From the IMG/VR virus record IMGVR_UViG_2939521961_000014: a stretch of 49,391 nucleotides of DNA. The stretch is one strand, 5' to 3'. This DNA comes from a virus (lineage: Duplodnaviria; Heunggongvirae; Uroviricota; Caudoviricetes). How positions within the stretch are numbered: position 1 is the first letter of the stretch; each line of letters starts with the position of its first letter. A program made the position numbers. Positions 39,001 through 42,000 of the stretch are shown in pieces.

Positions 39001-42000
39001 GCTGCAAGACAGCGATCGAGAAGATAAGCACCTCGACGCGTCATGCGCCAAAGCCACTTAAAGGAGACCATCATGGTAACCATTGTCTGGAAAGAATCCA
39101 AAGGTACGGCAAAAAGCCGCTACAAAGCTCGCAGAGCAGAACTTATTGCCGAGCGACGCAGTAATGAAGCACTGGCGCGAAAAATTGCGCTAAAGCTCTC
39201 TGGTTGCGTCAGAGCAGACAAAGCAGCATCACTAGGAAGCCTTTGCTGCAAGAAGAAAGAAGAAGTTGTTCGAAAAAATAGAAGTATTTATTACAAGGAT
39301 TCAAACCCATTAGGAAACAAAATACATGCAGTCCAAAAAATAAAATTGTACAGTAAACTACCGTACGGTGCTTATTGAGTATGCTTATGGTGAAAAAGAC
39401 TATTTATGTTAATCCTGACCGCGGACAAAACAGAAAAGTATCTGATAGAGGTCTTACATCTCGAGACAGGAGGAGAATAGCGAGATGGGAAAAGAGGATA
39501 GCATATGCATTAAAAAACGGTGTAACACCTGGATTTAATGCTATAGATGACGGTCCTGAATATAAGATTAATGAAGACCCAATGGACAAAGTTGACAAAG
39601 CATTAGCAACACCATTTCCTCGCGATGTCGAAAAAATTGAAGATGAAAAATATGAGGATGTAATGCACAGAGTTGTTAATCACGCTCACCAACGAAATCC
39701 AAATAAAAAATGGTCATAGCCCACTTCGGTGGGTTTTTTATTGGCTGAACTAACCTAATTTATTACAGCAAGCCACGCAGTGAAATGGGTGTGACTTGTG
39801 TTGGTCGCCAGAAAATGAAATTAGGCAGCAAACCACTTATTTGAGGTGAGATATGACAAAATCATGGAGCGTACCTTTTCCTGAATCAGAAACTGAACAT
39901 GATGGAATGCCTGTTTTCTGGAGATTCCAGGCGACAGTTGAAGAAGATGGGATAAAAATATTCGCACTTCAATATATAGCTTTTCATCAGACAGAGCATT
40001 ATGCATGGTTGGTTCCTGCGCATTGGATTGTTAATTTTAAACCAGCACCAAATCAGTGGTTACAGGAATGGAAACAAAGGAGAAATAGATATGCAATTAA
40101 GAAAGTAGCAAAAAATGCAGAAAGATCTTTTGCATTCCCAACGAAGAAACTTGCTATTGAAAGTTTATTGCGCCGGAAGAAATACCATTTAATGAGAATA
40201 AAACAAGATTTGGCTGTTGTATCAACTCTTGTTGATGGGATGAAAAATATTGATACATCAACACCAGATATTGAATATAACTTTGGACACAACCAAGAAA
40301 CAGAAAATTGGGTATTTTATTAGTACGAGTAAGCACTGTGTATTCATTCCAACGAGTGAATACACGGAGCAATGTCGCTCGTAACTAAACAGGAGCCGAC
40401 TTGTTCTGATTATTGGAAATCTTCTTTGCCCTCTAATGTGAGGGCGATTTTTTTCTGTGAGGATATGAACAGATGTCAAACATCAAAAAATACATCATTG
40501 ATTACGACTGGAAAACATCAATAGAAATTGAAATCGACCATGACTTAATGACAGAGGAAAAACTTCACCAGATTAATAATTTCTGGTCAGACTCTGAATA
40601 CCGACTCAATAAACACGGCTCTGTATTAAATGCTGTATTAATCATGCTGGCGCAACATGCTCTGCTTATAGCAATTTCAAGCGACTTAAATGCATATGGT
40701 GTTGTGTGTGAGTTCGACTGGAATGATGGAAATGGTCAGGAAGGATGGCCTCCAATGGATGGTAGCGAAGGAATAAGAATTACCGATATCGATACATCAG
40801 GAATATTTGATCCAGATGATATGACTATCAAAGCCGCCTGAGCGCGGCGTTACCGCATACCAATTACGCTTCACTCGAGGCGTTTTTCGTTATGTATAAA
40901 TAAGGAGCACACCATGCAATATGCCATTGCAGGGTGGCCTGTTGCTGGCTGCCCTTCCGAATCTTTACTTGAACGAATTACCCGTAAATTACGTGACGGA
41001 TGGAAACGCCTTATCGACATACTTAATCAGCCAGGAGTCCCGAAAAATGGATCAAACAATTATGGCTATCCAGACTAAATTCACTATCGCCACTTTTATT
41101 GGCGATGAAAAGATGTTTCGTGAGGCCGTCGACGCTTATAAAAAATGGATATTAATACAGAAACTGAGATCAAGCAAAAGCATTCACTACCCCCCTTTCC
41201 TGTTTTCCTAATCAGCCTGGCATTTCGCGGGCGATATTTTCACAGCCATTTTCAGGAGTTCAGCCATGAACGCTTATTACATTCAGGATCGTCTTGAGGC
41301 TCAGAGCTGGGCGCGTCACTACCAGCAGATCGCCCGTGAAGAGAAAGAGGCAGAACTGGCAGACGACATGGAAAAAGGCCTGCCCCAGCACCTGTTTGAA
41401 TCGCTATGCATCGATCATTTGCAACGCCACGGGGCCAGCAAAAAAGCCATTACCCGTGCGTTTGATGACGATGTTGAGTTTCAGGAACGCATGGCAGAAC
41501 ACATCCGGTACATGGTTGAAACCATTGCTCACCACCAGGTTGATATTGATTCAGAGGTATAAAACGGATGAGTACAGCACTCGCAACGCTGGCTGGGAAG
41601 CTGGCTGAACGTGTCGGCATGGATTCTGTCGACCCACAGGAACTGATCACCACTCTTCGCCAGACGGCATTTAAAGGTGATGCCAGCGATGCGCAGTTCA
41701 TCGCATTGCTGATCGTCGCCAACCAGTACGGCCTTAATCCGTGGACGAAAGAAATTTACGCCTTCCCTGATAAGCAGAACGGCATCGTTCCGGTGGTGGG
41801 CGTTGATGGCTGGTCCCGCATCATCAACGAAAACCAGCAGTTTGATGGCATGGACTTTGAGCAGGACAATGAATCCTGCACATGCCGGATTTACCGCAAG
41901 GACCGTAATCATCCGATCTGCGTTACCGAGTGGATGGATGAATGCCGCCGCGAACCATTCAAAACCCGCGAAGGCAGAGAAATCACGGGGCCGTGGCAGT

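What the first reader, a model, noticed from the sequence alone, without database searches (positions are those of the whole stretch)
39375..39719. Second AT-rich ORF (orf114) coupled to the N stop codon
A ~112-aa ORF starts within a few nucleotides of the N stop (TTG at 39375, ATG at 39381) and ends just before the tL1-like terminator. It is AT-rich, with a basic N-terminal half (DRGQNRKVSDRGLTSRDRRRIARWEKRIAYALKNG) and an acidic C-terminal half. That charge arrangement suggests a nucleic-acid-binding or antirestriction-type protein, but this is inference. It may act with orf156 or be an unrelated early moron.
Basis: partly seen in the sequence, partly recalled or inferred. Interest (0 to 1): 0.55.

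Follow-up and report, generated by a model that had tools for sequence, protein, structure and literature searches.

The report
HK022-type nun gene, lambda-exclusion factor
The "orf114" after the N gene is the well-studied phage gene nun, whose protein lets a resident prophage block infection by phage lambda by jamming RNA polymerase on lambda transcripts; it is an ordinary, already known gene.

Summary
It is nun, the transcription termination/arrest factor first described in coliphage HK022. Read from GTG 39390, the 109-aa product matches the Nun chain in the cryo-EM structure 6ALG at 108 of 109 residues (only S11R differs). It matches the boxB-binding arginine-rich peptide of NMR structure 1HJI at 26 of 26 residues. 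The C-terminal residues 87-109, which insert into RNA polymerase, are unchanged. Homology to HK022 DNA (96.6%) covers window 39261-39736. This stretch includes 129 bp upstream of the gene, where the literature places the prophage promoter PNun, and the intrinsic terminator. The neighbouring N gene and both nut sites are of the phage 21 type, and the window holds no lambda-type boxB, so Nun should not act on its own phage. The same N-nun arrangement is already deposited (mEp235, mEpX1, PA28, Stx1a phages), and the cassette occurs in 221 of 5426 complete E. coli genomes. orf156 occurs independently of nun. The nucleic-acid-binding guess was right, the antirestriction guess wrong. Side observations: the cassette was inserted into a phage-21-type N gene and left an orphan N 3' end at 39758-39844. 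Distant Nun relatives always follow an N gene and carry different arginine-rich motifs.

The parts
39390..39719 (+). nun coding sequence (109 aa plus stop) read from GTG 39390. Alternative annotated starts are ATG 39381 (112 aa) and ATG 39387 (110 aa). TTG 39375 is only the first in-frame start codon.
   Evidence: 108/109 residues identical to PDB 6ALG chain N, E 2.6e-71. PHROG 5632 'Nun-like transcription termination factor', 4.8e-71. 97.7% nt identity to HK022 nun and 99.4% to mEp235 and mEpX1 nun.
39444..39521 (+). Codons for Nun residues 19-44, the arginine-rich motif (DRGLTSRDRRRIARWEKRIAYALKNG) that binds lambda boxB RNA
   Evidence: 26/26 identical to the Nun peptide in the NMR complex 1HJI chain B. 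Role of the motif as described in PMC5386594 and PMC4124055.
39648..39716 (+). Codons for Nun residues 87-109, the C-terminal segment that inserts into the RNA polymerase elongation complex (includes H93, H98, H100, K106, K107, W108)
   Evidence: Identical to HK022. These residues are the part visible in the cryo-EM structure and hold all known arrest determinants (PMC5386594). M92, V95-A99, Q101-N103, K107 and W108 are invariant even in 41-43% identical relatives.
39261..39389 (+). HK022-homologous DNA upstream of nun. By homology it should contain the constitutive prophage promoters PNun and P'Nun. Here it also encodes the last ~39 codons of the N ORF.
   Evidence: The BLAST match to HK022 starts at 39261, with 125/129 nt identical. 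The promoters are known only from the title of King et al. 2000 as cited and from my memory of its abstract; the paper was not held. Consensus scans give only weak 7/12 candidates, so the promoter position is inferred, not shown.
39718..39744 (+). Intrinsic terminator ending the nun cassette (tL1-like position)
   Evidence: 7-bp GC-rich stem, 4-nt loop and T-run; -12.3 kcal/mol. HK022 has the same hairpin with a compensatory A-U to G-C change in the stem: CCCAC/GUGGG versus CCCGC/GCGGG.
39073..39378 (+). N antiterminator gene (101 aa). The first ~62 codons, including the arginine-rich motif, are phage 21 type; the C-terminal ~39 codons are HK022-cassette type.
   Evidence: Nearly identical to lambda imm21 N DNA up to about 39259, after which it follows the HK022 sequence. 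PHROG 271, N-like, 1e-31.
39758..39844 (+). Orphan 3' end of a phage-21-type N gene (IYYSKPRSEMGVTCVGRQKMKLGSKPLI*), displaced downstream of the nun terminator
   Evidence: Translation compared with imm21 N. This DNA matches the annotated 3' ends of N genes in lambda imm21, Gally, HK97, H-19B and 933W-like phages.
38923..38962 (+). nutL of the resident phage: boxA (GCTCTTTAA) and phage-21-type boxB hairpin (TCTCAACCTAACCGTTGAGA, 38943-38962)
   Evidence: Sequence; a single exact match in the window. It is not the lambda-type boxB, which is absent from the window even with 2 mismatches allowed.
37795..37835 (-). nutR of the resident phage: boxA (TGCTCTTTAA) and a phage-21-type boxB hairpin (TCACCTCTAACCGGGTGA) between cro and cII
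   Evidence: Read directly from the minus strand. Its assignment to the phage 21 type rests on my knowledge of P21 nut sites.

Best explanation
The ORF is nun, an ortholog of coliphage HK022 Nun. Shown here by sequence: the protein has the HK022 arginine-rich motif and the HK022 C-terminal arrest segment unchanged. From published work on HK022 Nun: the motif binds the boxB hairpin of lambda nutL and nutR in nascent RNA in competition with lambda N. [quoted passage not shown] Mfd then releases the stalled polymerase, so early transcription of a superinfecting lambda or lambda imm434 stops just past its nut sites and the phage is excluded. Inferred for this window: in the lysogen, nun is transcribed from the constitutive PNun promoter(s) in the conserved 129 bp upstream, which here doubles as the 3' end of N. 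That transcript stops at the hairpin at 39718-39744, so nun behaves as an insulated moron. During lytic growth it is also read from pL together with N and may be translated by coupling to the N stop codon. The resident phage uses a phage-21-type N and nut sites and has no lambda-type boxB, so it is not a target of its own Nun.
For: 108/109 identity to 6ALG chain N and 26/26 to the 1HJI boxB-binding peptide. PHROG 5632 Nun-like, 4.8e-71. 97.7% nt identity to HK022 nun, and 99.4% to genes annotated Nun in mEp235 and mEpX1, which show the same N-nun order. HK022 homology spans 39261-39736, covering the upstream region and terminator. The terminator hairpin is conserved with a compensatory change. 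Mostly synonymous change against HK022 (6 syn, 1 nonsyn). No lambda boxB within 2 mismatches, and phage-21-type boxB at nutL and nutR. Nun shows no similarity to the resident N but 30% over 60 aa to lambda N (E 4e-4). Mechanism as described in PMC5386594, PMC4124055 and PMC4496710.
Against: Nothing contradicts the identification. Weak points: no sigma-70 consensus match of 9/12 or better lies between 39261 and 39390, and the paper that maps PNun could not be read, so prophage expression in this context is inferred from 97% DNA identity. The initiation codon is uncertain and none of the candidates has a good Shine-Dalgarno sequence. The S11R difference is untested, but R11 is the common allele (mEp235, PDP110P1, PA28) and lies outside the motif and the arrest segment.
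Confidence: 0.95

Rival explanations
1. The gene is nun by descent but is not expressed from the repressed prophage in this context. The promoter region is now inside the N coding sequence, so nun is made only during lytic growth from pL, by coupling to N translation. Its role would then lie in the phage's own development rather than in exclusion.
For: The N stop overlaps or abuts the candidate nun starts. No good promoter consensus is seen upstream. In all distant relatives, nun starts 1-4 nt after an N-like gene, which suggests coupling.
Against: The 129 bp upstream are 125/129 identical to HK022, where a constitutive promoter just upstream of nun was demonstrated (King et al. 2000, cited). 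HK022 nun mutants grow lytically and lysogenize normally, so no developmental role is known. The dedicated terminator directly after nun fits an insulated prophage-expressed unit.
Confidence: 0.04
2. One reading: an antirestriction protein, or a generic nucleic-acid-binding protein that acts together with orf156.
For: Only the charge pattern (basic N-terminus, acidic middle) and the position near where lambda carries ral.
Against: Near-identity to Nun, whose mechanism and structure are known. No Pfam, NCBIfam or PADLOC match to antirestriction or defence families. orf156 and nun occur independently: orf156 directly follows N in the nun-less phages 933W and H-19B, and it is absent from HK022, mEp235, PDP110P1 and the Shimwellia and E1V33 loci.
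Confidence: 0.01

Closest known systems
Coliphage HK022 Nun transcription termination/arrest factor (PDB 6ALG chain N; 1HJI chain B; GenBank X16093, AF069308)
   Same: 108/109 residues, an identical arginine-rich motif and an identical C-terminal arrest segment. The same upstream 129 bp (97% identical), the same type of terminator, and the same place in the pL operon next to the immunity region.
   Different: HK022 has no N gene and uses put RNA; its nun follows pL/putL directly. Here nun follows an intact phage-21-type N, and the HK022-like upstream DNA is read as the C-terminus of that N. Residue 11 is R rather than S. Downstream DNA differs: IS903 in HK022, an orphan N fragment plus orf156 here.
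nun genes of phages mEp235, mEpX1, PDP110P1, PA28 and Stx1a-converting phages
   Same: Same N-nun tandem with a phage-21-type N 5' part, and the same orphan N 3' end after the terminator. mEp235 matches window 38000-39845 at 99.0%. PA28 and the Stx1a phages also carry orf156 downstream.
   Different: mEp235 has D63E and PA28 has 7 substitutions. In PA28 a 1-nt difference lets the N ORF run 37 nt into nun. mEp235 and PDP110P1 have other genes in place of orf156.
Lambda N antiterminator
   Same: The N-terminal half of Nun is distantly homologous to lambda N (30% over 60 aa, E 4e-4). Both bind lambda boxB through an arginine-rich motif.
   Different: The C-terminus is unrelated and has the opposite effect, arrest instead of antitermination. 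Nun is not detectably similar to the resident phage-21-type N.

Membership tests
HK022 Nun family (PHROG 5632) | Full-length sequence homology to HK022 Nun | tested here: met
   108/109 identical to 6ALG_N, E 2.6e-71. phrog_5632 matched over profile positions 1-112 of 112, 4.8e-71.
HK022 Nun family (PHROG 5632) | N-terminal arginine-rich motif (residues ~20-44) specific for lambda boxB | tested here: met
   26/26 identical to the peptide solved in complex with lambda boxB (1HJI_B). RNA binding itself was not assayed.
HK022 Nun family (PHROG 5632) | C-terminal arrest segment: His93/His98/His100, Lys106/Lys107 and penultimate Trp108 | tested here: met
   Residues 87-109 are identical to HK022. 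The motif M-x-x-VVNHA-x-QRN-x3-KW is invariant in relatives down to 41% identity. The functional roles come from the literature.
HK022 Nun family (PHROG 5632) | Position in the leftward early operon next to the immunity region, followed by an intrinsic terminator | tested here: met
   The order is cI (38108-38758), pL/nutL, N, nun, terminator (39718-39744), as in HK022 and mEp235.
HK022 Nun family (PHROG 5632) | Constitutive expression from the repressed prophage (PNun just upstream of the gene) | tested here: inconclusive
   The upstream 129 bp are 125/129 identical to HK022. No promoter reached the consensus threshold, and the mapping paper was not available.
HK022 Nun family (PHROG 5632) | The carrier phage is not itself a target (no lambda-type nut boxB) | tested here: met
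   0 matches to GCCCTGAARAAGGGC with up to 2 mismatches. The phage's own boxB hairpins are phage 21 type.
HK022 Nun family (PHROG 5632) | nun-dependent exclusion of lambda and lambda imm434, but not of phages with other nut sites | not testable with these tools
   Needs plating assays on a lysogen. The specificity for lambda and imm434 is stated in PMC4124055.
   No Pfam, NCBIfam or PADLOC family at E <= 0.1-1. The lambda imm21 ral gene occupies the equivalent position but is a different gene.

The most novel reading that the evidence does not exclude
The textbook picture, 'HK022 replaced N by Nun', may be the derived state. The evidence here does not exclude that nun is generally a passenger placed directly behind a resident N gene and travels as a cassette of N 3' end, nun and terminator. 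HK022 still carries a diverged N 3' end upstream of nun. The Nun family may be modular: a fixed C-terminal polymerase-jamming peptide joined to an N-terminal half copied from the N protein of a rival phage. Two cases support this: Hafnia phage Pocitis76 Nun-like against lambda N, and Proteus Nun-like against Photorhabdus N. If so, each Nun would be a decoy N aimed at a different competitor's nut sites.
Probability: 0.4. Interest if true: 0.4.

Novelty: already known. Interest (0 to 1): 0.1.

Why it matters
For this window it matters little. The gene, its structure, its mechanism and this N-nun arrangement are all already in the literature and in GenBank. There is a practical annotation point. 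Pfam, NCBIfam and PADLOC have no model for Nun. RefSeq labels the features under the cassette 'hypothetical protein' or 'regulator' in every listed row of the 221 complete E. coli genomes that carry it, so a well-understood superinfection-exclusion gene goes unseen by standard pipelines. The side observations give a modest evolutionary lead, not a discovery: the cassette was inserted into N, HK022 keeps an N remnant, and the arginine-rich motifs vary across Enterobacterales.

Tried and rejected
Pfam, NCBIfam and PADLOC scans of the protein found nothing; only PHROGs names it. A consensus promoter scan of 38700-39900 found no site upstream of nun. A relaxed scan of 39200-39400 gave only 7/12 candidates, for example TAAAAT at 39341-39346 without a -35 element, so I do not place PNun. 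King et al. 2000 could not be read by DOI or PMC id. A full-text search for 'PNun' returned only unrelated papers. A search for papers discussing N-nun tandems in mEp phages found nothing relevant, and Casjens & Hendrix 2015 was not held. I considered whether Nun could act on the phage's own nut sites and rejected it: there is no lambda boxB, and Nun is not similar to the resident N. I considered a functional link with orf156 and rejected it on co-occurrence. I did not run the large protein-database searches or a structure prediction, because a solved structure of an essentially identical protein exists.

Full report
**Observation**

The ORF exists as described. It runs from TTG 39375 to the stop at 39717-39719, with in-frame ATG 39381, ATG 39387 and GTG 39390. 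The upstream N ORF ends at TGA 39376-39378, so the first candidate starts overlap the N stop or lie within a few bases of it. A GC-rich hairpin with a T-run follows directly: stem 39718-39735, -12.3 kcal/mol. The gene is AT-rich, with GC 0.376 against 0.503 for the window. Residues 1-44 carry net charge +10 and residues 45-92 carry -8. The last 17 residues are basic again, at +4.

**Identity**

- PHROGs places the protein in phrog_5632, 'Nun-like transcription termination factor'. The E-value is 4.8e-71 and the full profile length is covered.
- The DNA is 97.7% identical to the nun gene of coliphage HK022 (X16093, AF069308). It is 99.4-99.7% identical to genes in mEp235, mEpX1 and PDP110P1.
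- In the Protein Data Bank search, the product read from GTG 39390 matches the 109-aa Nun chain of the Nun/RNA polymerase elongation complex 6ALG at 108 of 109 positions (S11R).
- The same search matches the 26-residue Nun peptide solved with lambda boxB RNA (1HJI) at 26 of 26 positions.
- R11 is the common allele: mEp235, PDP110P1 and PA28 all have it.
- Codon changes against HK022 are 6 synonymous and 1 non-synonymous, as expected for a translated gene.
- Published numbering (W108; residues 87-109 visible in the structure) fits a 109-aa protein starting at GTG 39390. GenBank records instead use ATG 39381 (112 aa) or ATG 39387 (110 aa). The start codon is therefore not settled by sequence alone.

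**Mechanism (from the literature, applied by near-identity)**

- Its C-terminal 23 residues enter the active-site cleft of the elongation complex and block translocation.
- NusA, NusB, NusE and NusG stimulate the arrest, and Mfd releases the stalled polymerase.
- The only known biological effect is exclusion of superinfecting lambda and lambda imm434.
- HK022 nun mutants grow and lysogenize normally (PMC5386594; PMC4124055; PMC4496710).
- All residues involved are unchanged in the window protein.

**Context**

The window is a lambda/phage-21-like prophage; its structural genes are about 92% identical to phage 21 and relatives. The gene order is cI (38108-38758), pL, nutL, N (39073-39378), nun, terminator.

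N is nearly identical to lambda imm21 N DNA up to about 39259. nutL carries the phage-21-type boxB TCTCAACCTAACCGTTGAGA at 38943-38962. nutR has a related hairpin on the minus strand. No lambda-type boxB occurs anywhere in the window, even with two mismatches allowed. Nun shows no similarity to the resident N but is 30% identical over 60 residues to lambda N. The phage is therefore not expected to be a target of its own Nun. This self-compatibility is inferred, not tested.

**Expression**

Homology to HK022 covers window 39261-39736. It starts 129 bp upstream of GTG 39390 (125/129 identical) and ends at the terminator.

King et al. 2000, cited, reported constitutive promoters for HK022 nun in a repressed prophage. 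From my memory of the abstract, they lie just upstream of the coding sequence, and their transcripts end downstream of nun. I could not read the paper. Consensus scans do not single out a promoter. Prophage expression here is therefore an inference from conservation.

The terminator stem differs from HK022 by one compensatory pair, CCCAC/GUGGG against CCCGC/GCGGG. This supports its function.

**How the cassette sits in N**

From 39261 onward, the N reading frame follows HK022-type DNA. That DNA is itself a diverged homolog of the N 3' end: EEVVRKNRSIYYKDSNPLGNKIHAVQKIKLYSKLPYGAY against imm21 EEVERKQNRIYYSKPRSEMGVTCVGRQKIKLGSKPLI.

The original phage-21-type 3' end survives as an orphan after the nun terminator, at 39758-39844 (IYYSKPRSEMGVTCVGRQKMKLGSKPLI*). 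This DNA matches the annotated 3' ends of N genes in imm21, HK97, H-19B and 933W-like phages.

In H-19B and 933W-like phages that N 3' end abuts orf156 directly. A unit of N 3' end, nun and terminator was therefore inserted into an N-orf156 arrangement. HK022 has no N but still carries the N 3' remnant upstream of nun.

**orf156**

orf156 belongs to phrog_1636, of unknown function. It is found in 80 phage records, against 29 for nun. It is absent from HK022, mEp235, PDP110P1 and the Shimwellia and E1V33 loci, and present in PA28. The two genes are independent modules.

**Distribution**

The cassette occurs in 221 of 5426 complete E. coli genomes, always on the chromosome. In the listed rows it is annotated 'hypothetical protein' or 'regulator'. 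Pfam, NCBIfam and PADLOC have no model for it.

Among GTDB species representatives, only six loci were found. The distant ones, at 40-53% identity, are in Providencia, Proteus and Photorhabdus, plus Hafnia phage Pocitis76. In each of these the Nun-like gene starts 1-4 nt after an N-like gene. The C-terminal motif is invariant, while the N-terminal halves differ.

The Pocitis76 protein is 50% identical to lambda N over its first 52 residues. The N-terminus of the Proteus protein resembles that of the Photorhabdus N. These are leads, not conclusions.

**Verdict**

It is wrong about antirestriction and about a link to orf156. The feature is a known gene with a known structure and mechanism, in an arrangement already deposited in GenBank. 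Interest is low and the novelty class is 'already known'.

Noticed in passing
window 39758-39844 (+): An orphan 3' end of a phage-21-type N gene (28 codons plus stop) lies after the nun terminator, with no 5' part in frame. It marks the right edge of the insertion that brought nun into N. The same fragment is present in mEp235, PDP110P1 and the Stx1a phages.
   Followed up: yes
window 39261-39378 (+); L001 2387-2510: The C-terminal ~39 codons of the resident N come from HK022-type DNA, a diverged homolog of the N 3' end. HK022 is said to lack N, yet it keeps this N remnant upstream of nun. Whether the hybrid N C-terminus changes N function is unknown.
   Followed up: partly
L006 2240-3180; L010 1311-1803; L011 1155-1776; L012 954-1632: Distant Nun-like genes in Hafnia phage Pocitis76, Providencia, Proteus and Photorhabdus always start 1-4 nt after an N-like gene. 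They share the tail M-x-x-VVNHA-x-QRN-x2-KKW but have different arginine-rich N-termini. Pocitis76 has two such genes in a row. The first is 50% identical to lambda N over 52 residues. The Proteus one resembles the Photorhabdus N N-terminus.
   Followed up: partly
window 39261-39740; E. coli RefSeq genomes: In every listed row of the 221 complete E. coli genomes carrying the cassette, nun is annotated 'hypothetical protein' or 'regulator'. Pfam, NCBIfam and PADLOC hold no Nun model. This is an annotation gap for a classic exclusion gene.
   Followed up: yes
window 39853-40323 (+): orf156 (GC 0.352) belongs to phrog_1636, of unknown function. It is the same gene as 933W L0079 and Stx2-phage-86 orf57 and normally sits directly after N. 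No Pfam, NCBIfam or PADLOC assignment.
   Followed up: partly
window 40473-40841 (+): A 122-aa DUF2528 protein (Pfam 2.6e-46; phrog_646). It has the same size and relative position as the gene annotated ea10 / single-stranded DNA binding protein in lambda h434 imm21. It was not aligned.
   Followed up: no
window 38757-38780 (+): A strong terminator-like hairpin plus T-run lies directly after the cI stop (-12.1 kcal/mol, z -3.5). It would limit read-through from the repressor transcript into pL, N and nun, and so argues that prophage nun expression needs its own promoter.
   Followed up: partly
L005 1481-1538 (phage PA28): In PA28 a 1-nt difference just before the N stop shifts the frame, so the annotated N ORF runs 37 nt into nun. 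nun itself is annotated there only as a 45-aa fragment, although it is intact.
   Followed up: partly
L008 (CAKRSU010000058.1); L007 (Shimwellia pseudoproteus): A 3.7-kb contig binned as an 'uncultured Oxalobacter' MAG carries the E. coli-type N-nun region at 98% protein identity, which probably reflects a binning error. A Shimwellia genome carries a cassette with 99% protein identity to the window Nun.
   Followed up: no
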